Assembly (NCBI GenBank): GCA_035708865.1
Contig: DASTFF010000001.1
Location: 4,333 to 68,332, forward strand
Source: Gemmatimonadota bacterium
Lineage (GTDB): Bacteria > Gemmatimonadota > Gemmatimonadetes > JACCXV01 > JAHWKZ01
Reading direction: 5' to 3'
Length of the DNA stretch: 64,000 nucleotides
The notes under the pieces were generated by a model. It was given only the letters and a program-made list of their open reading frames with translations. It searched no databases and had not been told where the DNA came from. Each line of letters opens with the position of its first letter. Position 1 is the stretch's first letter. Below, one piece after another: positions 49,873 to 62,712 of this stretch. Made by a program: the position numbers and the translations under genes.

Positions 49873-50748
49873 TCAACGCGGCGCGGGCTCCCGGTGGCGG
49901 CCGCGCCGCTCGCGCCAGGCCCGTACCACGCGCGCCAGGTCGCCACCGGCCTCGACCTCGCGGTTCAGCGCGCGCATGCCGGCCTCGTCGAGCGATCCCT
50001 CCAGCCCCGCCAGGACCCCGCCCACCGCCGGGTGCCGCCCGAGCGTCTCCGAGCGCACCACCGGCGCCGCCTGGTACGGCGGAAAGTAGCGGCGGTCGTC
50101 GGCCAGCACTACGAGGTCCAGCGACTCGATGCGGCCGTCGGTCGAGTTGGCGACCGCGACGTCGATCCGGCGCTCCGCGAGAGCCCGGTACATGAGGCCG
50201 AGGTCGAGCTGGAGGATCCGGCCGAACTCGAATCCGTACGCCTTCGCGAGCCCCGGATACCCGTCCTCGCGCGCCATGAACTCGGGGCCGAAGCCGGCCC
50301 TCATCCGCGCCGCGACCGGGCCCAGGTCGGTGATCGTCGCGAGGTCGAGCGATTCGGCGTCGGCCCGCCGGACGACCAGCGCGAACGTGTTCTGGAAACC
50401 CAGCGGGGGCCCCCACTCCAGCCCCCACCGCTCCGCGTACGCGTCGGCGACCTCCCGGAACGCACGCTCCGGTTCCTGGATCGGAGGCCGCTTTAGGATC
50501 GCGGTCAGGGCCGTCCCCGTGTACTCGGGATAGAGATCGATCCCTCCGTTCACGATCGCGCTGTGACAGACGAACGTCCCCCCCAGGTGAAAGCGCCGCT
50601 CGACCGGGACCCCGCGCGCCTCGAGCTCCTGCGCGAGGATCTCTCCGAGGACGTCCTGCTCGGTGAAGTTTTTCGAGCCGATCACGACCGCGTCCGCCGG
50701 ATGGCAGGCGAGGCCGAGAACGAGCAGGGCGGGGAACGCGCGTCTCAC
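49873..50748 (-). CDS. Quaternary-amine (glycine betaine/choline/ergothioneine-type) ABC transporter substrate-binding protein, OpuAC/OpuBC family
   Basis: Signal peptide (V)RRAFPALLVLGLACHPADA, then OpuAC fold (VIGSKNFTEQDVLGEILAQ..YPEYTG). GTG start overlaps the permease TGA (GTGA). The upstream ~174 codons of the track ORF are rejected. Confidence 0.8.
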   Translation of the reverse strand: MRRAFPALLVLGLACHPADAVVIGSKNFTEQDVLGEILAQELEARGVPVERRFHLGGTFVCHSAIVNGGIDLYPEYTGTALTAILKRPPIQEPERAFREVADAYAERWGLEWGPPLGFQNTFALVVRRADAESLDLATITDLGPVAARMRAGFGPEFMAREDGYPGLAKAYGFEFGRILQLDLGLMYRALAERRIDVAVANSTDGRIESLDLVVLADDRRYFPPYQAAPVVRSETLGRHPAVGGVLAGLEGSLDEAGMRALNREVEAGGDLARVVRAWRERRGRHREPAPR

Positions 50749-51416
50749 GCCGGCCGCCGCTCGACGCGCCGGGTCGCGTGCCCGGCGGGAGTGACGCGGC
50801 GCTCGAGCAGCCCGAGCAGCGCGTCGGCGAAGAGCGCCAGCAGGGCCGCCGGCACCGCGCCCGCCAGGATCACCGTGTCGTTCACCATCGCCAGGCCCTG
50901 GAAGATGTACACGCCGAGCCCCCCCGCCCCGATCGCCGCGGCGATCGTCGCGATACCGACCGAGATCACCGTCGCCACGCGGACGCCGGACAGGATGACC
51001 GGCGCCGCCAGCGGGAGCTCGACCCGGCCCAGGAGCTGTCCGCCGGTCATCCCGAGCCCCAGGCCGGCCTCGCGAACGGCGGGATCCACGCCCCGGATCC
51101 CGGCATGCGTCCCGCGGACGACCGGCAGCAGCGCGTACAGCGTGAGCGCCACGATCGCGGTCCGGGCACCGACCCCGCCGATGAACGGGACCGGGATCAG
51201 GAAGCCGAACAGGGCCAGGCTGGGGATCGTCTGGAGGACGTTGGCGGTTCCCATCACCACCCGCTCCCACCGCTGCCAGCGGGTGGCGGCGATCCCCAGC
51301 GGCACGCCCACCGCGACCGCCACCCCAACCGCCAGCGCGACCATCGTGACGTGCTCGAGGGTCAGTCCCGCGGCCTGGCCGGCGTGGTCGCGCAGGTAGC
51401 GAAGAAGCTCACCCAC
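50745..51416 (-). CDS. Quaternary-amine ABC transporter permease (OpuBB/ProW-like)
   Basis: Binding-protein-dependent permease with EAA-like loop and five TM segments. Confidence 0.85.
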   Translation of the reverse strand: MGELLRYLRDHAGQAAGLTLEHVTMVALAVGVAVAVGVPLGIAATRWQRWERVVMGTANVLQTIPSLALFGFLIPVPFIGGVGARTAIVALTLYALLPVVRGTHAGIRGVDPAVREAGLGLGMTGGQLLGRVELPLAAPVILSGVRVATVISVGIATIAAAIGAGGLGVYIFQGLAMVNDTVILAGAVPAALLALFADALLGLLERRVTPAGHATRRVERRPA

Positions 51417-52170
51417 CCGGACCTCCGCCCAGCGCCTCGACCAGCCCGCGGACTTCGGGGTGGCTCGAGGCCAGGAACTCCGCCGGCGGGGCGATCTCCG
51501 CCAGCCCGTCCTCGGTGAGCAGGCCGACCCGGCCGCCCAGCGCGAGCGCCTCGCGCAGGTCGTGGGTGACGAACAGGGCCGCCTTTTCCAGCCGTTGGAC
51601 GAGCTGCCGGAACTCCTGCTGGAGATCGGCCCTCGTCAGGGGATCCAGGGCGCCGAACGGCTCGTCGAGGAGAAGCAGCGGCGGGTCGGCGGCGAGCGCC
51701 CGGGCCACCCCTACCCGCTGCCGCTGGCCGCCCGAGAGCTCGTGCGGGTAACGCCGGCCGAACTCGCCGGCCGGCAGCCCCACCAGCTCGAGGAGCTCGG
51801 CCGTCCGCTCATCGATCCGGATCCGCTCCCATCCCAGCAGGTCCGGCACCAGACCCACGTTGCCGGCCACCGTGAGGTGCGGGAACAGCCCGACCTCCTG
51901 GATCACGTAACCGGTCCGCCGTCGCAGCGCCACGGGGTCCCAGTCGGTCGTGGGGCGCCCGGCGACGCGGACTACTCCCGCTGCCGGATCGAGGAGCCGG
52001 TTCACCAGCTTGAGGAGGGTCGTCTTGCCGACCCCCGAGCGGCCCACGAGGACAACCGTCTCGTCGGTCCCGACGGCCAGCGTGAGGCCCGCGAACAGGA
52101 CGCGCCCGTCGGGGAGCGAGAACGCCACTTGGTCGAACTCGACCGCCGGGGCCGCGGAGTCCGCCGACAA
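51409..52170 (-). CDS. Quaternary-amine ABC transporter ATP-binding protein (OpuBA/ProV-like)
   Basis: Walker A GRSGVGKTT, signature LSGGQRQRV and Walker B LLLDEP. TTG start at 52168-52170. Confidence 0.9.
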   Translation of the reverse strand: MSADSAAPAVEFDQVAFSLPDGRVLFAGLTLAVGTDETVVLVGRSGVGKTTLLKLVNRLLDPAAGVVRVAGRPTTDWDPVALRRRTGYVIQEVGLFPHLTVAGNVGLVPDLLGWERIRIDERTAELLELVGLPAGEFGRRYPHELSGGQRQRVGVARALAADPPLLLLDEPFGALDPLTRADLQQEFRQLVQRLEKAALFVTHDLREALALGGRVGLLTEDGLAEIAPPAEFLASSHPEVRGLVEALGGGPGG

Positions 52171-52229: not shown

Positions 52230-52236
52230 GGGCCCC

Positions 52237-54588
52237 ATGGCGGGCACCACCCGACCGGTCGCCCTCCCGGCGGCCGACCTTCGAGCCCCCGCCTTCGTCG
52301 AACGTGCCGGCGAGGGCTGGGTGGTGTTCGTCGATGCGACGCCCACCACCGCCGAGGCATTCGCCCACTCCGTCGCGCGCGGGCTCTCGGACCATCCCCG
52401 ATGGCTTCATTGCAGGTATCTCTACGACGAAACCGGGGGCGAGCTGTTCGGGCGGATCACCGAGCAGCCCGAATACTACCTGACACGGGCGGAGACCGAG
52501 ATCCTCGCGCGCCAGTCGGACGCGATCCGCGCGGCCGCGGGACCGGTGCCCCTCGTCGAGCTGGGCGCCGGCATGGCGATCAAGACCCGCCATCTGCTCG
52601 CGGCGTGGGACCGGGCCGGTGGGCCGGTCGAGTACGTCCCCGTGGACATCGACGCGTCCGTACTTACCGCGGCCGCCCAACGGCTGGCGGAGGAGTTTCC
52701 GGGGATCACGATCACCGGCCTAGCGACCTCGTACGAGCGCGGCCTGGACCTGATCGAAGGGCGCTCCCCGCTGTGTCTCGTCTTTCTGGGCTCGACGATC
52801 GGCAACTTCAATCCCGAGGAGACCGACGCCTTCCTGACCCGGCTCCGGGATGCCCTTTCGCCCGGGGACCGGCTGCTGCTGGGCGTCGACCTGGTCAAGC
52901 CGGTCGAGGAACTCGAGGCCGCCTACAACGATGCCGCCGGCGTGAGCCGCGAGTTCACCCGCAACCTCTTCCAGCGGATGAACCGGGACCTGGGCACCGC
53001 GATCCCGCTGGAAGCGATCGACCACGTCGCTTACTGGAACGACCGCCTCGAGCGGATCGAGATCTACGCCCAGGCACGGCGCGCCGTGAACGTAGAGCTG
53101 GCCTCGATCCAGCGGCGTTTTCGCATCGCGGCCGGCGAGATGGTCCTCACCGAGATCAGTCGCAAGTATCGGCTCGACGGCGTCGAGTCGGACTTCGCGC
53201 GGTTCGGTTTCAAGCTGGAACAGTCGTTCACCGACTCCGGCAGCCGGTTCGGTCTGCTCCTCTTCCGGCTCATCGATCCCGGCGCACGGCCGGACCAGGT
53301 GACCCGTCTGGCGGCAACGCTGCAGCGGGTACGCCGCCGTACGCTCGAGCTGATCGACGCGCTCGACGACGAGCGGCTCCGGCGGCAGGAGCTTTCGATC
53401 CTGAGCCCGATCGCGTGGGACCTCGGCCACATCGCCGAGTTCGAGGAGCTGTGGCTCGTGGATACGATCGACGCGCTGCTGACCGGCGGCGATCCATCCC
53501 GACTGTCTCCCGAATACGACGCCATCCGGACACCGCGGAGCGAGCGTGGCCATCTCCCGTTTCCCGCGCGGGGGGAGATCCTGGAGCGGCTCGAGCGCGT
53601 CCGGAAGGAGGCCCTGCGCCGGCTGCGCGCCATCGATCTGGCGGGCCATCCGCTCCTCGAACACGGGTTCGTCTACCACCTCCTGGCACAGCACGAGGCG
53701 CAGCACCAGGAGACGTTCCTGCAGGCGATCGCGCGGATGGCGGACCTGGCCTACGAGCCCGCTTTCCGCGAGCCCACCCCGCGCCCCTCGCTCCCGCCCG
53801 ATACCGACATGGTCCTCGTCGGCGAGGGTCCGTTTCCGGTCGGCGCCGCGCGCATCGCGGAGGCCTACGACAACGAGCGGCCGGTGACCCGGGTCGACGT
53901 GGACGCCTTCTGGATCGACGCCGCCCCGGTCACCAACGGCGTCTACCTCGCGTTCATGGAGGCCGGTGGCTACGAGCGCCGCGACGCGTGGAGCGACGAG
54001 GGATGGGCGTGGCGGGAGAAACACGCCGTCCGGTACCCGCTCGGCTGGCGGCGGGACGAGGGCGGCTGGGTCGACGTCCAGTTCGGCCACGTCGAGCCGC
54101 TCGTCCCCGCGCGGCCGGTCCAGCACGTCTCGTGGTACGAGGCCGACGCCTGCGCGCGCTGGCTGGGCAAGCGGCTCCCGACCGAGATCGAGTGGGAGAA
54201 GGCCGCGGCCTGGGATCCCGAGGTCCGGGTCCCGCGGCGCTACCCGTGGGGAGACGCCCAGCCCGACGCGCGCTGCGCCAACCTGGACGCCCGCACGTTC
54301 GCGCCGGCTCCCGTAGGTGCGTATCCGCGCGGCCGATCCTTCTACGGCTGCCATCAGATGCTGGGCGATGTCTGGGAGTGGACGGCGAGCGAGTTCCTTC
54401 CCTATCCCGGCTTCGAGGCGTTCCCCTACCCGGAGTACTCGGAGGCCCACTTCGGCAAGGGGTACCGGGTGCTGCGCGGCGGCTCGTGGGCGACCGCCGC
54501 GATCGTGGCGCGCAACTCGTTCCGTAACTGGGACCTTCCCGAGCGCCGCCAGATCTTTGCCGGGTTCCGCTGCGCCCGGGACGCGTGA
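52237..54588 (+). CDS. egtDB: Fused ergothioneine biosynthesis protein: EgtD-type L-histidine N-alpha-methyltransferase plus EgtB-type sulfoxide synthase (DinB_2 + FGE-sulfatase domains); Egt1-like architecture
   Basis: N-terminal 330 aa carry EgtD/Methyltransf_33 motifs (EYYLTRAETEIL, LVELGAGMAIKTRHLL, YVPVDIDASVL, FLGSTIGNF). C-terminal ~450 aa carry a DinB_2 region with an HLLAQHEAQHQETF iron-binding motif, then an FGE-sulfatase domain (GDVWEWT, RGGSWAT). Confidence 0.85.
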   Translation: MAGTTRPVALPAADLRAPAFVERAGEGWVVFVDATPTTAEAFAHSVARGLSDHPRWLHCRYLYDETGGELFGRITEQPEYYLTRAETEILARQSDAIRAAAGPVPLVELGAGMAIKTRHLLAAWDRAGGPVEYVPVDIDASVLTAAAQRLAEEFPGITITGLATSYERGLDLIEGRSPLCLVFLGSTIGNFNPEETDAFLTRLRDALSPGDRLLLGVDLVKPVEELEAAYNDAAGVSREFTRNLFQRMNRDLGTAIPLEAIDHVAYWNDRLERIEIYAQARRAVNVELASIQRRFRIAAGEMVLTEISRKYRLDGVESDFARFGFKLEQSFTDSGSRFGLLLFRLIDPGARPDQVTRLAATLQRVRRRTLELIDALDDERLRRQELSILSPIAWDLGHIAEFEELWLVDTIDALLTGGDPSRLSPEYDAIRTPRSERGHLPFPARGEILERLERVRKEALRRLRAIDLAGHPLLEHGFVYHLLAQHEAQHQETFLQAIARMADLAYEPAFREPTPRPSLPPDTDMVLVGEGPFPVGAARIAEAYDNERPVTRVDVDAFWIDAAPVTNGVYLAFMEAGGYERRDAWSDEGWAWREKHAVRYPLGWRRDEGGWVDVQFGHVEPLVPARPVQHVSWYEADACARWLGKRLPTEIEWEKAAAWDPEVRVPRRYPWGDAQPDARCANLDARTFAPAPVGAYPRGRSFYGCHQMLGDVWEWTASEFLPYPGFEAFPYPEYSEAHFGKGYRVLRGGSWATAAIVARNSFRNWDLPERRQIFAGFRCARDA

Positions 54589-54589
54589 G

Positions 54590-55603
54590 GTGAGCGGGCC
54601 GGCCGGGCCGGGCGACCTGGCGCGGCGGCTGGCCCGCCTGCCACTGGAGATCGAGAGCCATTCGGTCGAGCTGGGCTCCGTCCCGCTGGCCGGCTACTAC
54701 GACGGCGCCGAGCGCCCGACCGGGGTGGTCGGGATGGCCGGCCGGGGCCACGTCGGCCGCGGGGAAAACGTCGACTGGACACCGGCCGGGCAGGAGCGGT
54801 TCGCGGCCGTCTGCCGGGAGGTGGTCCAGGACGCCCTCCCGGCGGGGCCGACCACGCTGGGGGCGGTCGGTGCGGCGCTCACCCGCTCGCGTGCCCATCC
54901 CCACCACCGGGCGGCCCTCGAGGCGGCGGCCCTCGATCTCGCGCTCCGGCTGGCCGGTCTCGACCTCTTCCAGCTGAGCGGTCGGCAGCCCCGGGCGGTC
55001 CGCACCTGCCGCTCGATCGGCCGGGAGGAGATCGCCCGGGCGGGACCCCTGACCGCGGTCCTGGCCCTTCTCGCCCGCGAGCCGGACGCCCGGGTCAAGA
55101 TCGACGGCCCCGCCGGTGGATGGCCCGAGGACCTGTGGAGACGGCTGGCCGGGACGGGGCGGGTGGTCGTCGTCGACTTCAAGCGCGAGGGGACGGCCGA
55201 GCAGGTCGCGCTCGCCCACCGCTTCCTGCCCGGCGCCTGGATCGAGGACCCGCCCGCCGACCTCCTCGGACAGGCGGGGGCCGGGTCCTGGCTCTCACGC
55301 CTCGCGCTGGACGGGTACGTGGCGGCGGCTTCCGACCTCGACGCGCCGCCGGCCCCGCCGGCCGCCGTCAACGTGAAGCCCGCCCGGGTCGGGGGTCCCT
55401 GCGAGGCGCTGGCGATCCTCGAGCGGTGCCGGAGCTCGGGTTGGAGCGCCTACTTCGGCGGGATGTTCGAGGTCGACGTGGGCCGGCGGCAAGCGCAGGT
55501 CTTGGCTTCGCTGTTCACGGCCGGGGCGTGGAACGATCTGGCCCCGCTCACCGGGCCGTCCGGCCAGGACGGCGTTCCGGCCGGGGGGCCGGGGTTCGGC
55601 TGA
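54590..55603 (+). CDS. Enolase-superfamily enzyme, MLE subgroup (OSBS/dipeptide-epimerase/NSAR-like)
   Basis: Metal ligands and base in canonical order: VKIDGPAGGW (D), WIEDP (E), LALDGY (D), AAVNVKPARVGG (K). GTG start 2 nt after the egtDB TGA. The first 91 codons of track ORF 54317..55603 overlap egtDB and are rejected. Confidence 0.7.
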   Translation: MSGPAGPGDLARRLARLPLEIESHSVELGSVPLAGYYDGAERPTGVVGMAGRGHVGRGENVDWTPAGQERFAAVCREVVQDALPAGPTTLGAVGAALTRSRAHPHHRAALEAAALDLALRLAGLDLFQLSGRQPRAVRTCRSIGREEIARAGPLTAVLALLAREPDARVKIDGPAGGWPEDLWRRLAGTGRVVVVDFKREGTAEQVALAHRFLPGAWIEDPPADLLGQAGAGSWLSRLALDGYVAAASDLDAPPAPPAAVNVKPARVGGPCEALAILERCRSSGWSAYFGGMFEVDVGRRQAQVLASLFTAGAWNDLAPLTGPSGQDGVPAGGPGFG

Positions 55604-55625
55604 GCGGGTCCAGTGGTTTCGCCGC

Positions 55626-57200
55626 TCACCCGCGGCGCGCGAGGATCGCGGCCGCCGCCAGGCGTCCGGAGACGCCGGTGACCGCGCCCGCCGGGTGGGT
55701 GCCCGGGCCGCACAGGTAGAGCCCTTCGATGGGGGTCCCATACCGGCCCCAGCCGGGCACCGGGCGCATGAAGAGGAGCTGGTCGAGCGCCAGCTCCCCG
55801 TGGTGGGGATCCCCGCGGGTCAGTCGGTAGCGCGTCTCGAGGTCGGCCGGCGTCAGGACCCGCCTTTCGAGGATCGCCCCGGGGAGGTTGGGGGCGTGCT
55901 CGGCGAGTAGCTCGACCACGCGGTCCCCCATCGCGCCGGCCAGATCGGGCTCGGGAGCCGGGTGGTCTCCGAGCGGGACGAAACGTGCGTCGATCGACAT
56001 CACGTGCCGACCGGAAGGGGCCACCGAGGGGTCGGCGAGCGACGGGATACGCGCCTCCAGTACGGGGCGCCCCGACATCCGTCCGTGCTTGGCGTCATCG
56101 TACGCCCGCTCCACCGCATCCAGCTCCGGCGCGATCACCAGCGACCCCTGCGGTTCCACGTCGAGGCCTTCGAACCGCGGCGCCTCGGCCAGCGCCAGGT
56201 GGACTCGGACATAGCCGCCGCGGAAGCGGATCTGCCGGACCGCGTGGACGAAGTCGGGATCCAGGTGCCGGGCGCCCGTGAGGTCGAGAAAGGTGCGCGC
56301 GGGGTCCGCTCCCGACAGGACCCATCCGGCCGCGATCACCTCTCCGCCGTCCAGCGACACGCCGACCGCGCGACCCTCCTCGACCTCGATCGCGGCCACC
56401 TCCGCCCCGCACCGGACCTGGACCCCGCGCTCCTTCGCAGCCGCCGTCAGCGCCGCCGCGAGCGCGCCCACTCCCCCCCGCACCACGGTGCGCGGGCCGA
56501 ACGTCCCGGCCGGGCTTCCGACCTGGCGGTGGAGGAGCGCCAGCGACGTGCCCGGCGAGCGCGGGCCCTGGAAGACCCCGCGCACCGACAGCGCTCCCAG
56601 CGCGCCCTTCAGTAGATCGTTTTCGAAGCAGTCGTCGAGGAGATCGTAGGCGGGAAGCGGAAGCACGCGGAGCAGCTCGATCATCCGTGACCGTCCGAGC
56701 GAGCGGATCCGGCGGCCGACGCCGAAATACGGAAGCATCTCGCGGAGCGGCCCCGCCGGCCGGGCGGGGGGCCGCATCGCGACCGCCTCGAGGATACCCG
56801 AGAACGAAGCGATCCGGCCGGCGAACCCCATCCACCGCTCGGCGTCGCGGGGCGAACGTCTGGCGATCGAGGCGCGCGTCGCTTGCGGGTCGCGCCACAG
56901 GACCAGGGGCTCCCCGCCCGCCGCCGGGGCGGCGAGAACGGGATCGGGTCGTAGCTCGGCCAGGCCGTGCCTGGCGAGCCCCAGCCCGTTGACGATCGCC
57001 GGAGGCAGGTGGCCGGCGTCCGGGTGGACGGGGTCGATGCGGAAGCCGGGCAGGATCTCCTCGGAGGCGGCCTGCCCGCCCGGGACCTCGCCCGGCTCGA
57101 GCACCGTCACGCCCAGTCCCGCCTGCGCCAGCTCGAGGGCCGCGACCAGCTCCTCGATGCCGGATCCGATCACGACCACGTCCCGCCGGCCCCCGCTCAC
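55626..57200 (-). CDS. CrtI/phytoene-desaturase-family FAD-dependent oxidoreductase (paralog B)
   Basis: FAD dinucleotide motif VVVIGSGIEELVAALELAQAGLGVTVLE and C-terminal GLYLCGPGTHPAGAVTGVSG. GTG start overlaps the paralog A TGA (GTGA). The upstream ~548 codons of the track ORF are rejected. Confidence 0.75.
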   Translation of the reverse strand: MSGGRRDVVVIGSGIEELVAALELAQAGLGVTVLEPGEVPGGQAASEEILPGFRIDPVHPDAGHLPPAIVNGLGLARHGLAELRPDPVLAAPAAGGEPLVLWRDPQATRASIARRSPRDAERWMGFAGRIASFSGILEAVAMRPPARPAGPLREMLPYFGVGRRIRSLGRSRMIELLRVLPLPAYDLLDDCFENDLLKGALGALSVRGVFQGPRSPGTSLALLHRQVGSPAGTFGPRTVVRGGVGALAAALTAAAKERGVQVRCGAEVAAIEVEEGRAVGVSLDGGEVIAAGWVLSGADPARTFLDLTGARHLDPDFVHAVRQIRFRGGYVRVHLALAEAPRFEGLDVEPQGSLVIAPELDAVERAYDDAKHGRMSGRPVLEARIPSLADPSVAPSGRHVMSIDARFVPLGDHPAPEPDLAGAMGDRVVELLAEHAPNLPGAILERRVLTPADLETRYRLTRGDPHHGELALDQLLFMRPVPGWGRYGTPIEGLYLCGPGTHPAGAVTGVSGRLAAAAILARRG

Positions 57201-58795
57201 CACCTCCCGCCCCCCTGCGCGAGGACGGCGCGCGCCGCCAGGTGGCCGCTCGCGCCCATGACCCCACCACCCGGGTGCGTCCCCGAGCCGCACTGGTAGT
57301 AGCCGCGAATGGGAGTCGTGTGGCCGGCCCACGCCGGAGCCGGCCTCAGGAAGAAGAGCTGGCTCAGCGCCAGCTCGCCCTGGAAGATGTTCCCCTCCGA
57401 GAGCCCCGTTACGGTCTCGATGTCGGCCGGCGTGATCACCTGGCGATGGAGGATGGCGGAGCGGACGTTGGGCGCGTACTCGGCCAGAGTGTCGATCACC
57501 GCGTCGCCGAACGCCTCGCGGCTCCGGTCGTCCCAACCCCCGTTCCGGTGATACGGAGCGTATTGGACGAAGATCGACATGACGTGCTTCCCCGGCGGCG
57601 CCATGCCGGGATCGATGAGCGACGGGATCACGATGTCGAGGAAGGGACGGCGGGAGAACTCGCCGTACTTGGCGTCGTCGTAGGCGCGCTCGAGGTAGTC
57701 CACCCCGGGCGCGATTGCGATCGCCCCCCGCAGGTGGGGCCCGTCGCCGGGAAGCGCCGTGAAGTCGGGCGGCTCGGACAGCGCCAGGTTGACCTTGCCC
57801 GACGAACCGCGGAAGCGGAACCGCCGGACGGCCTCCACGAGCTCGTCGGGGAGCTCCGCCGGCTCGACCAGCTCGAGGAACGTGCGCCGCGGATCGAGAC
57901 CCGAGATCACGGCCCGCGCGCGGATCTCCTCCCCATCGTCCAGGACCACTCCCGCCGCCCGTCCGTTCTCGACGAGGACCTGCCGGACAGGGGCGTCGGT
58001 CCGGATCTCGGCCCCGAAGCTCCGCGCCGCTGAAGCGATGGCATCGCTGACCGCGCCGGTCCCGCCACGGGCGAACCCCCAGGCCCGGAACACCCCGTCG
58101 ATCTCCCCCATGTAGTGATGGAGGAGGACGTAGGCCGTTCCCGGCGAGCGGGGTCCGAGGAAGGTCCCGATGATGCCGCTCGCCGACTTGGCCGCCTTGA
58201 GAGGCTCGCTCTCGAACCATTCCGCCAGGTAATCCGCCGAACTCATCGTCATGAGCTTGACGAGCGCGTGGAGGTCCCGCTCGCCGAGGCCGCGGAAATG
58301 CCGTGCCAGCCGGCCCATCGCCAGGAGATCCCGCGGCCGCCATGAGGCGGGGTCGGGTGGCGAGACGCTCAGCAGCGGCTTGACCGCCATCGCCATCCGC
58401 TGCATGAGCCGGCCGAACTCCAGGTACGCGTCGGCGTCGCGCGGAGAATGGCGGTACAGCTCGCGCCGCGTCGCGTCGGGGTCGGCCCACGTCGCCAGAT
58501 AGTCGCCGTCCGGGAGTGGGTTGAACGTGCTCTCGAGCGGAACGATGTGAAGACCGTGGCCGGGCAAATCGAGGTCGCGGATAATCTCCGGCCGGAGCAG
58601 GCTCACGACGTACGAGAAGACCGAGAAGCGGAAGCCCGGGAACACCTCCTCGGTGACCGCCGCTCCCCCCACCACCGGACGGCGCTCGAGGACCAGGACC
58701 CGGCGGCCGGCACGGGCGAGATACGCCGCGCAGACGAGGCCGTTGTGGCCCCCGCCCACCACCACGTCGTCCCAAACCGCGGCGGGCGACGTCAC
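57197..58795 (-). CDS. CrtI/phytoene-desaturase-family FAD-dependent oxidoreductase (paralog A)
   Basis: VVVGGGHNGLVCAAYLARAGRRVLVLE FAD motif and C-terminal GYYQCGSGTHPGGGVMGASG. GTG start overlaps the gcvT-like TGA (GTGA). Confidence 0.75.
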   Translation of the reverse strand: MTSPAAVWDDVVVGGGHNGLVCAAYLARAGRRVLVLERRPVVGGAAVTEEVFPGFRFSVFSYVVSLLRPEIIRDLDLPGHGLHIVPLESTFNPLPDGDYLATWADPDATRRELYRHSPRDADAYLEFGRLMQRMAMAVKPLLSVSPPDPASWRPRDLLAMGRLARHFRGLGERDLHALVKLMTMSSADYLAEWFESEPLKAAKSASGIIGTFLGPRSPGTAYVLLHHYMGEIDGVFRAWGFARGGTGAVSDAIASAARSFGAEIRTDAPVRQVLVENGRAAGVVLDDGEEIRARAVISGLDPRRTFLELVEPAELPDELVEAVRRFRFRGSSGKVNLALSEPPDFTALPGDGPHLRGAIAIAPGVDYLERAYDDAKYGEFSRRPFLDIVIPSLIDPGMAPPGKHVMSIFVQYAPYHRNGGWDDRSREAFGDAVIDTLAEYAPNVRSAILHRQVITPADIETVTGLSEGNIFQGELALSQLFFLRPAPAWAGHTTPIRGYYQCGSGTHPGGGVMGASGHLAARAVLAQGGGRW

Positions 58796-59991
58796 GCGCG
58801 CTTGCGCCCGGGTTCGAAGAACGGCGTCTCGACGACGGTCGCACGGGCCCTCTTCCGGCGATGCTCGATCGTCATCTCGAGCGCGACGTCCGTTCCAGGC
58901 TCGGCATGCGAGGCCGGGACGTGACTCAAGGCGATGTACTTCTTGAGGAGCGGCGACCAGCAGCCGCTGGTCGCGTACCCCACCTGCTCGCCCCCGTCGT
59001 AGACCGGCGTGCTCGTCCGCCAGGCGGTGGTCGGGAGCTGGGGCGGGAGCCCGACCTCGGAGAACAGCGCCTCCAGCGAGTCCCACTCCACGATCAGGCC
59101 GCGCAAGGCCCACGTCGAGCCGCGCTCGCGCTCCGCCTCGAGCGCCGCCTGGCCGACGAAGCGCGATTTCGCGCGGGCCACCGTCCACCCCAGGCCGAGC
59201 TCGAAGGGGGACGACTTCTGGGTTTCGATGAGGGCCCGCCGCGCCGAGACATAGTCGACGTCGATCAGCAGCAGCCCGGCCTCGATCCGCGCGACGTCCA
59301 TCGCCAGAAGGCCGGTCGGCAGCAGGCCCGCGGGCGCGCCGGCCGCGACGAGGAGGTCCCACAGCGCCTCGGCCCGTCCATTGGCGACCCAGATCTCGTA
59401 CCCCAGGTCACCGGTGTAGCCGGTGCGCGTCACGGTGACCGGGATCCCTCCCAGACACGCCTCCGCGGCGCGGAAGAAGCGCAGCCCCGTCAGGTCGGTG
59501 TCGGCGACACCCGTCAGGATCTCGCGGGCCGCCGGCCCCTGGAGGGACAGGGCGGCCGTCGCGGCGGTCTCGTCCTCGATCGCGACGTTCATCCCGACCG
59601 CGTTCTGGTGGAGCCAGCGCAGGTTGGGGTGGGCGGACGTCATGCGGAACCGGTCCTCCTCGAGCCGCGCCACCGTTCCGTCGTCGATCACCTTCCCCTC
59701 GGGGTCGCACCACGGCGTGTACAGGACCTGCCCCACCGCGCAGCGGGCCACGTCCCGGGTCACGATCCGGTCCAGGAGCGCGGCCGCGTCCGGCCCCCGG
59801 ATCCGGTACTTGAACAGCGGGGTCACGTCGATCAGCGCGGCGGTGCCACGGATGGCCGCATACTCCAGATCGTGGACCAGGTCGTATGAGGACGCCACCA
59901 CGTAGCCGGCCCAGCGGCGCCAGGCATGGCCGCGCACGAGCGCCGCAGTGCGGGAATGGAAGGGAGTGGTCCTCAGCCCGTGGATGGTCAT
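58792..59991 (-). CDS. GcvT-family aminomethyltransferase (folate-binding; glycine-cleavage T-protein-like)
   Basis: ALIDVTPLFKYRIRGPDA (compare DVSHMGK..GPDA), RTGYTGDLGYEIW and a C-terminal barrel. No gcvH or gcvP nearby. Confidence 0.8.
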   Translation of the reverse strand: MTIHGLRTTPFHSRTAALVRGHAWRRWAGYVVASSYDLVHDLEYAAIRGTAALIDVTPLFKYRIRGPDAAALLDRIVTRDVARCAVGQVLYTPWCDPEGKVIDDGTVARLEEDRFRMTSAHPNLRWLHQNAVGMNVAIEDETAATAALSLQGPAAREILTGVADTDLTGLRFFRAAEACLGGIPVTVTRTGYTGDLGYEIWVANGRAEALWDLLVAAGAPAGLLPTGLLAMDVARIEAGLLLIDVDYVSARRALIETQKSSPFELGLGWTVARAKSRFVGQAALEAERERGSTWALRGLIVEWDSLEALFSEVGLPPQLPTTAWRTSTPVYDGGEQVGYATSGCWSPLLKKYIALSHVPASHAEPGTDVALEMTIEHRRKRARATVVETPFFEPGRKRA

Positions 59992-60015
59992 CCTTCGCCC
60001 CGCCGTCCCGGCGGA

Positions 60016-61947
60016 TCACCCAGGCGGGGGCGGAGAGGCCTCCTGGACCAGCCGGTCCACGAGGTGGTCGAGGTCCATCGTCCCGAGCTCACCCTCAGCG
60101 TGGGAGCGGACGCTCACCTTCCCGGTTCCCACCTCGCGCTCCCCCACGACGAGCATGTACGGGATCTTGTGAACCTCGGCATCGCGGATCTTGTAGCCGA
60201 CCCCCTCCCGCCGCGCGTCCACGTGCGGCCGCAGGCCCTTCCGGCGGAGGTGCTCGGCGACGGTCTCGGCATACTCGATGAACACGTCGCTCACCGGGAC
60301 GATCCGCACCTGCTCGGGCGCGAGCCAGGTCGGAAAGGCGCCGCCGTAGTGCTCGATCAGGATCCCCATGAAGCGCTCGATCGAGCCCAGGATGGCACGA
60401 TGGATGACGACCGGCCGCGCCTCGTCCCCCTCGGTGGCGGTGTAGACCAGATCGAACCGCTCTGGCAGGTTGAAGTCGCACTGGATTGTCGAGAGCTGCC
60501 ACCTCCGCCGCAGGACGTCGGTCACCTGGAAGTCGATCTTGGGGCCGTAGAAGGCGCCTTCGCCGGTCGCCTGGCGGTACTCGAGCCCGTTGGCCTCGAG
60601 CGCCTTCCTGAGCGCCGCCTCCGCCTTGTCCCACACCTCCTCCGACCCAAGCCGGCTCTCCGGCCTGAGCGAAAGATCGATGGCGATCTCGAACCCGAAC
60701 ACGTCCTCCATGACGTACCGTACCAGGCCGATGAGAGACGTCACCTCGTCCTGGATCTGGTCCGGCGTGCAGTAGATGTGGGCGTCGTCCTGCACGAAGG
60801 TCCGGACCCTGAAAAGACCGGTTACGACGCCCGATTTCTCGAACCGGTGGAGGCGCCCGAAGTCGGCGTAACGGAGCGGCAGGTCACGGTAGGATCGCTT
60901 CTGGGACGCGTACACGTAGACCGACGCAGGGCAGTTCATGGGCTTGACGGTCATCTCCCTCTCGTCGGCGGCCGTGAAGAACATGTTCTCCTTGTAGTGC
61001 TCGTAATGTCCGGAGCGGTGCCACAGCTCGACATCGAAGATCTGCGGGGTCACGATCTCGTCGTGCGGCCACCCATCCTCGTGAAGGTCGCGCATGAACC
61101 GCTGCAGGCGGTTGTAGATCCACGCCCCCTTGGGGTGGAAGTACGGGCTGGCGGGCGCATTGGGATGGAACGAGAACAGGTCCAGCTCCCTCCCCAGCTT
61201 CCGGTGGTCGCGCTTGCGCGCCTCCTCGATCCGCGCGAGGTGCTCCGCGAGCTCCTTCCGGGAGAAGAACGCGGTCCCGTAGATCCGCGTCAGCATCTTG
61301 TTGTGCTCGTCGCCCCGCCAGTAGGCGCCGGCGGTCGAGAGCAGCTTGAAGGTTCCGAGACGGCCGGTCGAGGGGACGTGCGGCCCGCGGCAGAGGTCGA
61401 GCCACTCCCCCTGCCGGTACAGGGTCAGCGTCTCGCCTTGGGGGATCGCCTCCACGATCTCGACCTTGTAGGACTCGTCCAGCTTCCGGAAGAGCTCCAC
61501 GGCGGCGTCCCGGGAGACTTCCTCGCGCTCGATCGGCAGGTCCTCGGCGACGATCTTCTGCATCTCGGCCTCGATGGCCTCGAAGTCGTCCGGCGTGAAC
61601 GGGCTCTGCCGGTCGAAGTCGTAGAAGAAGCCGTCCTCGATAACCGGGCCGATCGTGACCTTGGTCACGGGCCACAGCCGCTGGACGGCCTGCGCCATGA
61701 GATGGGCGGTCGAATGCCGGTACACTTCGAGCGCGAGCGCGTCACGCTCGGTCAGGATGCGGAGCGTGGCGTCGCCCTCCAGCGGCCGGCTCAGGTCCCA
61801 GGGGCGGCCGTCCACCTCGGCCACCAGCGCCGCCCGGGCGAGCCCGGCACCGATCCGGCCGGCCACATCGGCCGGCGTCGACCCGACCGGCATCTCGAGC
61901 ACCGAGGCGTCGGGGAGGGTCACGCGGATGATTTGTGAAGCGGACAT
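60016..61947 (-). CDS. thrS: Threonine--tRNA ligase
   Basis: TGS domain, second additional domain (HSTAHLMAQA), class II core and anticodon-binding domain. ATG at 61945-61947. Confidence 0.9.
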   Translation of the reverse strand: MSASQIIRVTLPDASVLEMPVGSTPADVAGRIGAGLARAALVAEVDGRPWDLSRPLEGDATLRILTERDALALEVYRHSTAHLMAQAVQRLWPVTKVTIGPVIEDGFFYDFDRQSPFTPDDFEAIEAEMQKIVAEDLPIEREEVSRDAAVELFRKLDESYKVEIVEAIPQGETLTLYRQGEWLDLCRGPHVPSTGRLGTFKLLSTAGAYWRGDEHNKMLTRIYGTAFFSRKELAEHLARIEEARKRDHRKLGRELDLFSFHPNAPASPYFHPKGAWIYNRLQRFMRDLHEDGWPHDEIVTPQIFDVELWHRSGHYEHYKENMFFTAADEREMTVKPMNCPASVYVYASQKRSYRDLPLRYADFGRLHRFEKSGVVTGLFRVRTFVQDDAHIYCTPDQIQDEVTSLIGLVRYVMEDVFGFEIAIDLSLRPESRLGSEEVWDKAEAALRKALEANGLEYRQATGEGAFYGPKIDFQVTDVLRRRWQLSTIQCDFNLPERFDLVYTATEGDEARPVVIHRAILGSIERFMGILIEHYGGAFPTWLAPEQVRIVPVSDVFIEYAETVAEHLRRKGLRPHVDARREGVGYKIRDAEVHKIPYMLVVGEREVGTGKVSVRSHAEGELGTMDLDHLVDRLVQEASPPPPG

Positions 61948-62000
61948 GGGCGAGGGCAAGCTATCCGGGCCGTCCGGGCGCGGCAAAAGAATCGCCGCCG

Positions 62001-62387
62001 CTACAGGGCGCCGTACCGCCGCAGCGTCTTCTCGGTAACGACATAGACGAAGGCCGGCTCCGGAGCGCCCCCGGAGCCGGCCTCGCCGGCGACCGCGCGG
62101 GCCTTGATCCGCACGTAGAGCCCTTCGTGGACCCCCTCGTAAGCGTCCAGCCGCGCATAGTCCTCGCCGGTCAACCGGCGGTAGAGATTCCCTTCCACGA
62201 CGTCCCCGGGGGCGCCGAAGACGGTCGGAAAGGCGAGGCCTTCCAGTCGCAGGAGCTCGAAGTCGAGGAGCCGGGCGGCCTCAGCCTCGACAGGCTTCTC
62301 CAGGAGCCGGGCCGCGAACTCGGTGTCCAGGAGGGTCCCGTAGACGAACAGAGGCAGGGCGGGCGGGGGACCGAGCGTCTTCGTCAG
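62001..62387 (-). CDS. Gamma-glutamylcyclotransferase-like (AIG2/GGCT fold) protein; start codon unresolved
   Basis: PLFVYGTLLD..E..YARLDAYEG GGCT-like motifs. No in-frame ATG/GTG/TTG exists downstream of the ATL stop. Only a CTG overlapping the ATL TGA (cTGA) is available, unless the gene overlaps ATL extensively. Confidence 0.4.
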   Translation of the reverse strand: MTKTLGPPPALPLFVYGTLLDTEFAARLLEKPVEAEAARLLDFELLRLEGLAFPTVFGAPGDVVEGNLYRRLTGEDYARLDAYEGVHEGLYVRIKARAVAGEAGSGGAPEPAFVYVVTEKTLRRYGAL

Positions 62388-62686
62388 CGGCTCCCGGGGC
62401 CGCGCCAGCCCCAGCGCCCGAGATCCACGGTCCCGTCCGGCCGGAACACCACTCCCTCCTCCTCCAGGAGCGCGCGCTGGAGCGCGGCCGGCACACCCAC
62501 CTTCCAGATCGAGATCCCGCCCCGGTGGTTGACGACCCGCTGCCAGGGGACGTCGGACTCGTCCGGCAGGGCGTGCAGGGCCCAGCCCACCGTGCGCGCA
62601 GCGCGTGGCTTGCCACACAGGGCGGCGACGTGGCCGTAGGTGGTCACCTTACCGGCCGGAATCCTGCGCACCATGGCGTGGACCAC
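62384..62686 (-). CDS. Alkyltransferase-like protein (MGMT DNA-binding domain, active-site Cys replaced by Trp)
   Basis: IPAGKVTTYGHVAALCGKPRAARTVG helix-turn-helix and PWQRVVN in place of PCHRVV. About 100 aa from a GTG at 62686 or an ATG at 62674. Confidence 0.65.
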   Translation of the reverse strand: MVHAMVRRIPAGKVTTYGHVAALCGKPRAARTVGWALHALPDESDVPWQRVVNHRGGISIWKVGVPAALQRALLEEEGVVFRPDGTVDLGRWGWRGPGSR

Positions 62687-62712
62687 CCCGAAGAAGCCCC
62701 CCGGCCGCCCGC

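What the first reader, a model, noticed from the sequence alone, without database searches (positions are those of the whole stretch)
55626..59991. GcvT-family aminomethyltransferase translationally coupled to two tandem CrtI-family flavoproteins, convergent on the egtDB operon
Three genes are linked by GTGA overlaps: gcvT-like, CrtI-like A and CrtI-like B. There is no gcvH/gcvP and no carotenoid synthase (crtB/crtM) nearby. GcvT-fold proteins transfer one-carbon units from amines to tetrahydrofolate, as in DmdA, LigM, and the C-terminal domains of sarcosine and dimethylglycine dehydrogenases. Pairing with two amine-oxidase/desaturase-fold flavoenzymes resembles a split oxidative N- or S-demethylation module. 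Its placement tail-to-tail with a betaine-synthesis locus raises the possibility of a trimethylammonium (betaine) demethylation pathway. The two CrtI paralogs are clearly divergent copies and are not identical.
Basis: inference. Interest (0 to 1): 0.55.

Follow-up and report, generated by a model that had tools for sequence, protein, structure and literature searches.

The report
PYROXD2-like, folate-linked amine demethylation module
Three overlapping genes encode a folate-binding one-carbon transferase and two flavoproteins, one of them the bacterial counterpart of the human orphan enzyme PYROXD2; the trio is conserved across many bacterial phyla and most likely strips methyl groups from amines, which makes PYROXD2's unknown function testable.

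Summary
Three minus-strand genes (58792-59991, 57197-58795, 55626-57200) are joined by two GTGA start/stop overlaps. The organism is a Gemmatimonadota bacterium.

The first gene is a GcvT-fold protein. It fails every canonical GcvT cutoff and is closest to the folate domain of TMAO demethylase.

The two flavoproteins are not carotenoid enzymes, and both fail the CrtI and CrtO cutoffs. Copy A is a full-length homolog of mammalian PYROXD2 (42% identity, 129 shared invariant positions). Copy B is a fast-evolving paralog that is variable at exactly the A/PYROXD2 signature sites.

The trio recurs in more than 80 loci from at least seven phyla. A GbcA-like Rieske oxygenase is often adjacent. In cultured Alphaproteobacteria the trio sits with an omega-aminotransferase and a polyamine-type transporter.

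The egt neighbour is conserved only in the two closest relatives examined and in 0 of 82 other loci. Those two relatives also carry an IclR regulator and a Rieske gene, both of which this window lacks.

Best reading: a split, folate-linked oxidative N-demethylase. The substrate is unknown. N-epsilon-methyl-lysines are the leading guess, based on human PYROXD2 genetics. No experimental characterisation was found.

The parts
58792..59991 (-). GcvT-fold, folate-dependent aminomethyltransferase-family protein (399 aa). Proposed one-carbon acceptor subunit.
   Evidence: Pfam GCV_T plus GCV_T_C. The best NCBIfam hit is the C-terminal half of TMAO demethylase (288 bits), and all GcvT models score below cutoff. 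The best PDB hit is Tdm 9q5a residues 409-784. D104 aligns with DMGO D552. D104, Y192, E199 and R235 are invariant in 73 orthologs.
57197..58795 (-). Flavoprotein A (532 aa), a PYROXD2-type FAD oxidoreductase. Proposed catalytic amine oxidase/dehydrogenase.
   Evidence: A has a canonical GGGHNG dinucleotide motif. It is 42% identical over its full length to mouse PYROXD2 (416 bits). It shares 129 invariant columns with PYROXD2. Identity is 62-79% across bacterial phyla. The AF2 model has pLDDT 96.7 and a CrtI/amine-oxidase fold.
55626..57200 (-). Flavoprotein B (524 aa), a divergent paralog of A. Proposed partner subunit, or a less constrained second oxidase.
   Evidence: B is 43% identical to A and 34% to PYROXD2. 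Its dinucleotide motif is the degenerate GSGIEE. It keeps 71% of the A/PYROXD2 invariant residues but is variable at the signature sites. The B family has 61 columns at >=90% conservation, against 239 in A.
58792..58795 (-). GTGA overlap: stop codon of the GcvT-like gene and start codon of A.
   Evidence: Sequence read. The same overlap is present in L001 and L088.
57197..57200 (-). GTGA overlap: stop codon of A and start codon of B, preceded by GGGAGG.
59992..60015 (-). 24-nt spacer between the thrS stop codon and the start of the GcvT-like gene. This is the position where close relatives carry an IclR regulator gene.
   Evidence: no IclR hit in the window. No promoter- or terminator-like site was found.
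55604..55625 (.). 22-nt convergent spacer between the stop codon of B and the stop codon of the DUF8230-like gene. This is the position where relatives carry a GbcA-like Rieske oxygenase gene.
   Evidence: and 17 and 81 (no Rieske hit anywhere in the window).
60016..61986 (-). Context: threonyl-tRNA synthetase (thrS), directly upstream and probably co-transcribed with the trio.
   Evidence: Pfam TGS, tRNA_SAD, tRNA-synt_2b and HGTP_anticodon. 81% identical to the L088 ThrRS.
52237..55603 (+). Context: fused egtD-egtB gene (52237-54588) plus a DUF8230-like gene (54593-55603), convergent on B.
   Evidence: The fusion passes the NCBIfam cutoffs for EgtB (384 > 360) and EgtD (309 > 290.9). Codon-position G+C supports the second gene. 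Collinear with L088 and L089.
49891..52170 (-). Context: OpuAC-type (betaine-class) ABC transporter made up of ATPase, permease and substrate-binding protein.
   Evidence: Pfam ABC_tran, BPD_transp_1 and OpuAC. OsmF-like at 139 bits, below cutoff. Collinear with L088.

Best explanation
The three genes encode a split, tetrahydrofolate-linked oxidative N-demethylase.

Shown: the gene architecture, its conservation across phyla, the family assignments and the conservation of key residues.

Inferred mechanism:
- Flavoprotein A is the catalytic subunit. Its FAD oxidises the N-CH3 bond of a secondary or tertiary methylamine to an iminium ion.
- The GcvT-fold protein uses tetrahydrofolate to capture that one-carbon unit as 5,10-methylene-THF, releasing the demethylated amine. 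The flavin and folate parts of dimethylglycine oxidase and sarcosine oxidase work this way.
- Flavoprotein B keeps the nucleotide-binding scaffold but not A's substrate-site signature. It most likely acts as a structural or regulatory partner in an A-B heteromer. Less likely, it is a second oxidase for the next methyl group.
- In most relatives a GbcA-like Rieske mono-oxygenase removes the first methyl from a quaternary (trimethylammonium) precursor, and an IclR or TetR regulator controls the genes.

This window has lost both the Rieske gene and the IclR gene. The trio now abuts thrS and can probably act only on tertiary and secondary amines.

The substrate is not established. Omega-N-methylated amino acids or polyamines are the best guess, with N-epsilon-methyl- and dimethyl-lysine leading. 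The electron acceptor (O2 or the respiratory chain) is unknown.
For: (1) Conserved trio. The best 80 come from Gemmatimonadota, Acidobacteriota, Chloroflexota, Beta-/Gammaproteobacteria, Desulfobacterota, Eisenbacteria and Chlamydiota. The GcvT-like gene lies immediately upstream of A in 66 of 75 informative loci, and within 9 kb in 6 more. B lies immediately downstream of A in 68 of 71. The gene order differs in Alphaproteobacteria (A-B-GcvT) and the GcvT-like gene is divergent in Acidobacteriota, yet the association persists.

(2) Demethylation context. A Rieske oxygenase whose best NCBIfam match is glycine-betaine mono-oxygenase GbcA lies within 8 kb in 28 of 63 loci. Alphaproteobacterial operons add one or two such Rieske genes, a class-III omega-aminotransferase, a PotF-like ABC transporter and sometimes a large (~680 aa) OYE-family Fe-S flavoprotein. 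APC amino-acid permeases are adjacent in 8-10 Acidobacteriota loci.

(3) The GcvT-like protein keeps the catalytic Asp (aligned with DMGO D552) and folate-site residues in all 73 orthologs. Its nearest solved relatives are folate domains that accept formaldehyde-level carbon: Tdm, then GcvT and DMGO.

(4) A is homologous to PYROXD2: 42% identity and 416 bits, 129 shared invariant columns, an A+PYROXD2 clade with 88% bootstrap, and animal and choanoflagellate PYROXD2 among the best 150 of 1.84 billion representatives. The human PYROXD2 missense variant M461T explains about 50% of the variance in plasma N6-methyllysine and 48% for N6,N6-dimethyllysine. It also associates with trimethyllysine, N-methylpipecolate, TMA and DMA (PMC8109053, PMC5780481, PMC13352909). 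Residue 461 lies inside an A/PYROXD2-invariant motif.

(5) One eukaryotic protein fuses a PYROXD2-like domain to a GFA (formaldehyde-activating) domain.

(6) Finch PYROXD2 showed no carotenoid activity (PMC12010460).
Against: - No member of the bacterial trio, nor PYROXD2 itself, has a demonstrated activity. All functional evidence is from gene context and human genetics.
- The closest fold match is a carotenoid desaturase (4rep, TM 0.78), and the best NCBIfam hit is CrtO.
- No gene fusion of A or B with a GcvT domain was seen among the 150 best representative clusters.
- No folate-recycling genes (folD, purU) appeared among the 25 most frequent neighbour families of each of the three batches.
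- The transporters associated with the trio differ between phyla (OpuAC, APC, PotF-like), so the substrate may not be the same everywhere.
- The GFA fusion is a single case.
- The human DMA and TMA associations could instead reflect oxidation of the lysyl C-N bond, which would release methylamines and not formaldehyde.
Confidence: 0.6

Rival explanations
1. A and B form a deaminating amine oxidase. They oxidise a non-methyl C-N bond of a polyamine or omega-amino compound, for example releasing methylamine or dimethylamine from N-methylated lysine. The GcvT-like protein then processes an aminomethyl fragment or plays a separate role. Under this reading no methyl group is transferred directly from the flavin site to folate.
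For: Structural neighbours include putrescine, monoamine, nicotine and cyclohexylamine oxidases. Alphaproteobacterial operons carry PotF-like polyamine transporters and omega-aminotransferases. Human PYROXD2 variants associate with free dimethylamine and trimethylamine.
Against: The near-obligate pairing with a GcvT-fold protein that keeps the catalytic Asp, and the frequent GbcA-like demethylating Rieske partner, are more simply explained by removal of methyl carbon. A deaminating oxidase needs no folate partner.
Confidence: 0.15
2. The GcvT-like protein is a redox-neutral methyltransferase of the DmdA/LigM type, moving an S-, O- or N-methyl group to THF. A and B then oxidise or desaturate the demethylated product.
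For: DmdA and LigM/DesA models give significant though weak matches of 130, 64 and 69 bits.
Against: The protein scores much higher against Tdm, GcvT and DMGO-type folate domains, which accept methylene-level carbon, and it keeps the Asp used by those enzymes. In this model A's 62-79% conservation across phyla and its tight translational coupling would go unexplained.
Confidence: 0.07
3. A and B are carotenoid or isoprenoid enzymes (a CrtO-like ketolase, or a CrtN/HpnE-like desaturase), and the GcvT-like gene is an unrelated neighbour.
For: The best NCBIfam hit is the CrtO ketolase, at 327 bits for A and 245 for B. The best fold match is a carotenoid desaturase, 4rep. Gemmatimonadota do make carotenoids (general knowledge).
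Against: Scores are far below the CrtO (1000) and crtI_fam (238) cutoffs. No phytoene/squalene synthase or other crt gene lies in the window neighbourhood or among the 25 most frequent neighbour families of each batch from 82 loci. The GcvT association holds across phyla and gene orders. The vertebrate homolog showed no carotenoid activity.
Confidence: 0.04
4. The first gene is the genome's ordinary glycine-cleavage T protein, and the two oxidoreductases are unrelated passengers.
For: It has the GCV_T plus GCV_T_C architecture and a significant match to GcvT models. The rest of the genome could not be inspected.
Against: It falls below every GcvT cutoff: 166.5 < 235.85, 224.5 < 300 and 143.8 < 459. 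No gcvH or gcvP is nearby. No glycine riboswitch is present. The gene travels with A and B in 72 of 75 loci.
Confidence: 0.03

Closest known systems
Dimethylglycine oxidase (DMGO), DMGDH/SARDH and heterotetrameric sarcosine oxidase (SoxBDAG)
   Same: An amine-oxidising flavoprotein is coupled to a GcvT-fold folate site that captures the methyl-derived carbon as 5,10-methylene-THF. The catalytic Asp of the folate domain is conserved. In sarcosine oxidase a non-catalytic nucleotide-binding module accompanies the catalytic flavoprotein (general knowledge). This resembles the proposed relationship between A and B.
   Different: The flavoproteins here have the PYROXD2/CrtI (PF01593) fold, not the DAO/MSOX fold. 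The folate domain is a free-standing 399-aa protein and not a fused domain. No activity or complex has been shown.
PYROXD2 (animal mitochondrial orphan flavoprotein)
   Same: A aligns over its full length at 42% identity and shares 129 invariant positions. It groups with PYROXD2 in a rooted NJ tree. Human genetics point to N-methyl-lysines and methylamines as substrates.
   Different: The searches here recovered PYROXD2 as a single family in animals, with no B-like paralog among the hits and no GcvT-like domain in the protein. The bacterial protein is cytoplasmic and operon-encoded. The PYROXD2 reaction itself is unknown (PMC8777681).
CrtO beta-carotene ketolase and CrtI/CrtD carotenoid desaturases
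   Same: Same overall fold (4rep TM 0.78; 4dgk). CrtO is the best-scoring named model.
   Different: A and B score at a third or less of the CrtO cutoff and about half the crtI_fam cutoff. They have no carotenoid gene context and are constantly linked to a folate protein.
Trimethylamine N-oxide demethylase (Tdm)
   Same: The GcvT-like protein is most similar to the C-terminal folate domain of Tdm (288 bits against the NCBIfam model; PDB 9q5a, 1e-55).
   Different: It lacks Tdm's N-terminal catalytic half (residues 1-408 of 9q5a), so the carbon donor must come from another protein, proposed here to be A.
Glycine betaine mono-oxygenase GbcAB and related Rieske quaternary-amine demethylases
   Same: Relatives of this locus carry a GbcA-like Rieske oxygenase directly after B.
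   Different: Those proteins score 150-220 bits against a cutoff of 670, so they are not GbcA orthologs. No reductase partner lies next to them. The gene is absent from this window.

Membership tests
Glycine-cleavage T protein (canonical GcvT) | Scores above the curated GcvT equivalog/subfamily cutoffs | tested here: not met
   TIGR00528: 166.5 vs 235.85. NF001567: 224.5 vs 300. NF010093: 143.8 vs 459.
Glycine-cleavage T protein (canonical GcvT) | GCV_T folate-binding domain plus GCV_T_C barrel, with the catalytic Asp and folate-site residues | tested here: met
   Pfam E-values 4.5e-63 and 4.2e-16. D104 aligns with DMGO D552. D104, Y192, E199 and R235 are invariant in 73 orthologs. The residue roles are recalled from published T-protein structures.
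Glycine-cleavage T protein (canonical GcvT) | Works with the H and P proteins (gene linkage to gcvH/gcvP, and often a glycine riboswitch) | tested here: not met
   No gcvH or gcvP lies within about 6-9 kb or among the 25 most frequent neighbour families of each batch from 82 loci. Rfam gave no hits. The rest of the genome was not available.
Folate-linked flavoprotein amine demethylases (DMGO, DMGDH, SARDH, SoxBDAG) | An amine-oxidising flavoprotein physically or genetically coupled to a GcvT-fold folate module | tested here: met
   GTGA-coupled genes. The pairing is conserved in 72 of 75 loci across phyla.
Folate-linked flavoprotein amine demethylases (DMGO, DMGDH, SARDH, SoxBDAG) | The flavoprotein belongs to the DAO/MSOX family | tested here: not met
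   The full-length match is to PF01593 Amino_oxidase. DAO matches cover only the N-terminal dinucleotide motif. The fold is of the CrtI/MAO type.
Folate-linked flavoprotein amine demethylases (DMGO, DMGDH, SARDH, SoxBDAG) | Releases formaldehyde, or 5,10-methylene-THF, from an N-methyl amine | not testable with these tools
   Requires an enzyme assay.
CrtI / phytoene desaturase family (including CrtO, CrtD, CrtN, HpnE) | Scores above the family cutoffs | tested here: not met
   crtI_fam: 123.2 (A) and 99.2 (B) vs 238.1. CrtO: 327.5 and 244.8 vs 1000. HpnE: 31 and 27 vs 283.
CrtI / phytoene desaturase family (including CrtO, CrtD, CrtN, HpnE) | Gene linkage to phytoene/squalene synthase or other carotenoid genes | tested here: not met
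   None lies in the window neighbourhood. None is among the 25 most frequent neighbour families of each batch from 82 loci.
CrtI / phytoene desaturase family (including CrtO, CrtD, CrtN, HpnE) | Three-domain CrtI-type flavoprotein fold | tested here: met
   AF2 model pLDDT 96.7. Foldseek: 4rep TM 0.78/0.84 and 4dgk 0.55/0.70, but flavin amine oxidases score similarly to 4dgk.
PYROXD2 family | Full-length collinear homology to animal PYROXD2, closer than to other CrtI-fold families | tested here: met
   A vs mouse PYROXD2: 42% identity, 416 bits over residues 8-525. Median 41.7% over 82 A orthologs, against 34% for B. Oyster, flatworm and choanoflagellate PYROXD2 are among the best 150 representatives.
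PYROXD2 family | Shares the family's invariant residues and groups with PYROXD2 in a tree | tested here: met
   129 columns are invariant in both A and PYROXD2. Signature sites (S61, Y62, S65, L66, R68, Y222, W239, F409, N469, F471) are absent from B. The A+PYROXD2 clade has 88/100 bootstrap support.
PYROXD2 family | Same biochemical reaction as PYROXD2 | not testable with these tools
   The PYROXD2 reaction is itself unknown (PMC8777681).
TMAO demethylase (Tdm) | N-terminal catalytic half plus C-terminal GcvT-like domain in one ~760-790 aa protein | tested here: not met
   The match covers only model positions 386-761 and 9q5a residues 409-784. The protein is 399 aa. It scores 288 vs a cutoff of 1100.

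The most novel reading that the evidence does not exclude
Flavoprotein A is the bacterial ortholog of human PYROXD2, and the conserved bacterial operon reveals the function of that orphan enzyme. Under this reading it is an FAD-dependent oxidative demethylase of free N-epsilon-methyl- and dimethyl-lysine or closely related omega-N-methyl amines. That would make it the long-unassigned 'epsilon-alkyllysinase' activity described in rat kidney in 1963-64. In bacteria the enzyme works as an A-B heteromer that hands the methyl carbon to a stand-alone GcvT-fold folate protein. A Rieske oxygenase opens the pathway from trimethyl-lysine.
Probability: 0.3. Interest if true: 0.85.

Novelty: new variant of a known kind. 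Interest (0 to 1): 0.66.

Why it matters
PYROXD2 is one of the strongest and most replicated loci in human metabolite genetics. One missense variant explains about half the variance in plasma N6-methyllysine. Biallelic variants cause a severe infantile mitochondrial disorder. Even so, papers up to mid-2026 in the searched library still describe its reaction as unknown.

The trio lies in more than 80 bacterial loci from at least seven phyla. There its closest bacterial counterpart is locked to a folate-dependent one-carbon acceptor, and often to a betaine-type Rieske demethylase. This context gives a concrete biochemical hypothesis that can be tested in cultured bacteria and with the recombinant human enzyme.

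For microbiology, it would define a widespread and so far unnamed route for recycling methylated amines into the folate pool in soil phyla that are hard to culture (Gemmatimonadota, Acidobacteriota, Chloroflexota). It would also show that the folate-coupled demethylase design arose a second time, on a CrtI-type flavoprotein scaffold.

Tried and rejected
- First AF2 run of A with a shallow 12-sequence alignment failed (pLDDT 47). It was repeated with 134 diverse sequences (pLDDT 96.7).
- The afdb50 fold library was unavailable.
- Literature searches found no paper on the bacterial module. The terms tried were aminomethyltransferase + phytoene dehydrogenase + Rieske + betaine, PYROXD2 + demethylase and related terms, butyrobetaine/valerobetaine + Rieske + THF, and methyl-lysine oxidase/alkyllysinase. 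Only a historical account of epsilon-alkyllysinase turned up.
- I looked for a Rieske or IclR remnant in the window using proteins from L001, L002 and L088. None was found.
- The spacers are only 22 and 24 nt.
- The promoter/terminator scan gave nothing above chance.
- Rfam found no riboswitch in the window region or in four related loci.
- I tested whether egtDB, thrS or the OpuAC transporter travel with the trio. They occur in 0 of 82 loci and only in the two closest relatives examined. A general functional link to ergothioneine synthesis is therefore rejected.
- I looked for a further conserved partner by clustering and by Pfam counts of 407 neighbouring ORFs. The only recurrent ones are Rieske, APC permease, peptidase S9, IclR, PLP decarboxylase and cupin, each in a minority of loci.
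- No folD, purU, gcvH, gcvP or crt genes appeared among the frequent families.
- I looked for A-GcvT fusion proteins among the 150 best representative clusters. There were none, only one GFA fusion.
- The substrate could not be resolved.

Full report
**What is in the sequence.** The window has about 72% G+C, and its closest relatives are Gemmatimonadota. Three genes lie head-to-tail on the minus strand:
- a GcvT-fold gene, 58792-59991 (399 aa, ATG start);
- flavoprotein A, 57197-58795 (532 aa, GTG start);
- flavoprotein B, 55626-57200 (524 aa, GTG start).

Both junctions are GTGA overlaps, and the second is preceded by GGGAGG. Pfam assigns GCV_T plus GCV_T_C to the first gene and Amino_oxidase (PF01593) to the other two.

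**Surroundings.**
- *Upstream on the same strand:* thrS ends 24 nt before the GcvT-like start. Genes for GGACT, a DNA_binding_1 protein and proline dehydrogenase lie further upstream.
- *Downstream and convergent:* a single fused egtD-egtB gene (52237-54588) passes both NCBIfam cutoffs. It is followed by a 336-aa gene (54593-55603) that ends 22 nt from the stop codon of B.
- *Beyond that:* an OpuAC-type ABC transporter, a glyoxalase gene and infC.

**What the three proteins are not.**
- *The GcvT-fold protein.* It fails all curated GcvT cutoffs. Its best match is the C-terminal folate half of TMAO demethylase (288 bits; PDB 9q5a residues 409-784, 1e-55). Bacillus GcvT and the folate domain of dimethylglycine oxidase come next.
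- *A and B.* Their best match is the CrtO ketolase, at 327 and 245 bits against a cutoff of 1000, and they reach only about half the crtI_fam cutoff. The closest solved sequences are 16-20% identical.
- *Other signals.* No glycine or THF riboswitch is present, and no promoter or terminator signal exceeds chance.

**The trio is a conserved unit.** The 80 best come from Gemmatimonadota, Acidobacteriota, Chloroflexota, Beta- and Gammaproteobacteria, Desulfobacterota, Eisenbacteria and Chlamydiota, with A at 62-79% identity.
- A GcvT-like gene (49-66% identical) lies immediately upstream of A in 66 of 75 informative loci. It is on the same strand in 52 and divergent in 14, mostly Acidobacteriota. 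It lies within 9 kb in 6 more.
- A second paralog lies immediately downstream of A in 68 of 71 loci.
- A Rieske oxygenase lies within 8 kb in 28 of 63 loci. Its best NCBIfam match is the glycine-betaine mono-oxygenase subunit GbcA, at 150-220 bits and well below the cutoff of 670.

Cultured Alphaproteobacteria carry the same three genes in the order A-B-aminomethyltransferase. Examples are Rhizobium sp. SL42, Shinella zoogloeoides ATCC 19623, Parasedimentitalea marina and Fuscovulum ytuae; Ensifer adhaerens has two comparable A-family matches, but its locus was not inspected. In these operons the trio sits with:
- a TetR regulator;
- a class-III omega-aminotransferase;
- one or two GbcA-like Rieske genes;
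- a PotF-like polyamine-type ABC transporter;
- in two cases, a large (~680 aa) OYE-family Fe-S flavoprotein.

Clustering and Pfam counts of 407 neighbouring ORFs found no other constant partner. APC amino-acid permeases (8-10 loci, Acidobacteriota), peptidase S9 (8), IclR (7), PLP decarboxylase (4) and cupin (4-5) recur only in minorities. No gcvH/gcvP, folD/purU or carotenoid genes appear among the frequent families.

**The egt neighbour.** EgtDB, thrS and the OpuAC transporter were found in none of the 82 loci and in none of the alphaproteobacterial loci. The two closest relatives examined (A 86-88% identical; L088, L089) are collinear with the window over the whole stretch:

ProDH, DNA_binding_1, GGACT, thrS, IclR (opposite strand), GcvT-like, A, B, Rieske, DUF8230 and EgtDB (opposite strand), ABC ATPase, permease, OpuAC, glyoxalase, infC, rpmI, rplT.

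The window differs in exactly two places. The IclR gene and the Rieske gene are missing, and nothing in the 64 kb resembles either. From this I draw three conclusions:
- The egt adjacency is a feature of one narrow lineage and not of the module.
- In that lineage a roughly 12-kb block sits between thrS and infC, which are neighbours in the classical thrS-infC-rpmI-rplT arrangement (general knowledge).
- The window carries a trimmed version of the module that probably depends on read-through from thrS.

**Identity of the flavoproteins.** The consensus of A recalled human PYROXD2.
- A is 42% identical to mouse PYROXD2 over residues 8-525 (416 bits). B is 34% identical (266 bits). A and B are 43% identical to each other.
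- Over all loci, PYROXD2 is 41.7% identical to A on median (412 bits) and 34% to B (271 bits).
- A orthologs are 69% identical to each other across phyla, whereas B orthologs are only 41% identical.
- 129 alignment columns are invariant in both A and PYROXD2. B keeps a median of 69% of them, mostly nucleotide-binding residues.
- B is variable, with no consensus of its own, at a set of A/PYROXD2 signature positions: S61, Y62, S65, L66, R68, T183, I209, P218, Y222, M229, W239, F409, N469 and F471.
- A has 239 columns at >=90% conservation and B has 61.
- B's dinucleotide motif is canonical in 57 of 74 loci and degenerate elsewhere. In the window it reads GSGIEE, and some B proteins are shortened and lack the GG motif.
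- In an exhaustive search of 1.84 billion representatives, oyster, flatworm and choanoflagellate PYROXD2 are among the best 150 matches to A.
- With a diverse alignment, A folds confidently (pLDDT 96.7). Its best solved neighbour is a carotenoid desaturase (4rep, TM 0.78), followed by nicotine, monoamine, putrescine and cyclohexylamine oxidases and CrtI. The fold is thus shared by carotenoid desaturases and flavin amine oxidases and does not decide between them.

**What is known about PYROXD2.** Its reaction is unknown, and biallelic variants cause an infantile mitochondrial disorder (PMC8777681).
- The missense variant rs2147896 (M461T) explains about 50% of the variance in plasma N6-methyllysine and 48% for N6,N6-dimethyllysine.
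- The same variant associates with trimethyllysine, the N2-acetyl derivatives, N-methylpipecolate, urinary trimethylamine and plasma dimethylamine (PMC8109053, PMC5780481, PMC13352909).
- Residue 461 lies inside a motif (H-V-x-S-x-F-x-Q-Y-x-P-Y) whose flanking residues are invariant between A and PYROXD2. The motif includes the signature residue F409.
- Finch PYROXD2 is about 35% identical to CrtO and showed no carotenoid-metabolising activity (PMC12010460).
- An oxidative demethylase of free epsilon-N-methyl-lysine, 'epsilon-alkyllysinase', was described in rat kidney in 1963-64. Its discoverers later equated it with LSD1 (PMC3936616). Linking it to PYROXD2 is my inference.
- One protein from a microbial-eukaryote contig fuses a GFA (glutathione-dependent formaldehyde-activating) domain to a PYROXD2-like domain. 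This is a single case, but it is consistent with formaldehyde-level chemistry.

**Mechanism proposed.** All steps below are inferred.
1. A oxidises an N-methyl C-N bond through FAD.
2. The GcvT-fold protein captures the carbon on tetrahydrofolate. It keeps the Asp aligned with DMGO D552 and the folate-site residues Y192, E199 and R235 in all 73 orthologs. The flavin and folate parts of dimethylglycine and sarcosine oxidases cooperate in this way.
3. B is nearly always present, evolves about twice as fast as A and is relaxed at the substrate site. It is best read as a partner subunit, loosely comparable to the non-catalytic nucleotide-binding part of the sarcosine oxidase alpha subunit. A role as a second oxidase for the next methyl is not excluded.
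4. The Rieske partner in relatives would take the first methyl off a quaternary amine, which a flavin amine oxidase cannot attack. Its absence here suggests that this organism handles only tertiary and secondary amines, or that it encodes the oxygenase elsewhere.

**Substrate.** The substrate is open. The extreme conservation of A and of the residues it shares with PYROXD2 favours a common substrate class, for which human genetics suggests N-epsilon-methyl-lysines. The omega-aminotransferase and PotF-like transporters in Alphaproteobacteria would fit methylated polyamines or omega-amino-acid betaines equally well. The OpuAC transporter in this lineage's block would fit a betaine.

**Verdict.** Its reasoning from the egt locus does not hold beyond one narrow lineage, and 'CrtI-family' understates what these proteins are.

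The module is widespread, and I found no characterisation of it in the searched literature. I rate it a new variant of a known kind: a folate-coupled amine demethylase built on a PYROXD2/CrtI-fold flavoprotein pair with a free-standing GcvT-fold subunit. Its main value is that it turns the function of PYROXD2 into a directly testable question.

Noticed in passing
window 52237-54588 (+): EgtD (histidine methyltransferase) and EgtB (sulfoxide synthase) are fused into one 783-aa protein in the order D then B. This is the architecture known from fungal Egt1. The protein passes both NCBIfam cutoffs. The fusion is conserved in relatives L088 and L089.
   Followed up: partly
window 54593-55603 (+): A 336-aa gene directly after egtDB has a clear coding signal (GC3 about 0.92) but no significant Pfam hit in the local library, only a weak MR_MLE_C/enolase-like match (E = 0.046). 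Its homologs in relatives are tagged DUF8230_N/C. As a constant partner of the fused egtDB in this lineage, it could be a missing ergothioneine-pathway step. That is speculation.
   Followed up: partly
window 49466-60015, compared with L088 and L089: The whole block lies between thrS and infC-rpmI-rplT, which are normally adjacent. The block comprises the demethylation trio, egtDB plus DUF8230, the OpuAC ABC transporter and glyoxalase, so it looks like an insertion into that conserved cluster. The window lacks exactly two genes present in both relatives, IclR and the Rieske oxygenase, leaving clean 24-nt and 22-nt spacers.
   Followed up: yes
L087 1437-3887 (protein P0293): An 816-aa protein from a contig with eukaryote-type neighbours (VMP1, RNA cyclase) fuses a GFA (glutathione-dependent formaldehyde-activating) domain to a PYROXD2-like domain that is 43% identical to A. 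Only one instance was seen.
   Followed up: partly
L059 13513-14637, L064 13307-14395, L068 13407-14438: Longimicrobiales loci carry a second, distant GcvT-fold gene (32-33% identical to the window protein) just downstream of B, in addition to the one upstream of A.
   Followed up: no
L002 11569-13169: In this Gemmatimonadota contig the B gene is split into two ORFs of 430 and 103 aa that together match a full-length B. This is either a frameshift or sequencing error, or decay of B.
   Followed up: no
L008, L010, L011, L015, L023, L029, L033, L039, L077 (B genes): In several Gemmatimonadales and Burkholderiales loci B is shortened (roughly 370-490 aa) and lacks the GG motif that follows the first beta-alpha-beta unit. 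Some also have Asp, Glu or Ala in place of the third Gly of GxGxxG. This suggests loss of flavin binding in those lineages.
   Followed up: partly
L083 1185-3859: In Rhizobium sp. SL42 the module lies about 5 kb from genes annotated as a fatty-acid-desaturase-family protein, a MocE-family ferredoxin and an FAD oxidoreductase. These resemble the rhizopine (3-O-methyl-scyllo-inosamine) demethylation genes mocDEF, pointing to a second demethylation system in the same region.
   Followed up: no
window 62001-63651 (-): Proline dehydrogenase, a small DNA_binding_1 (methyltransferase-like) gene and a GGACT (gamma-glutamyl cyclotransferase-like) gene precede thrS. They appear in the same order in relative L088.
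   Followed up: no
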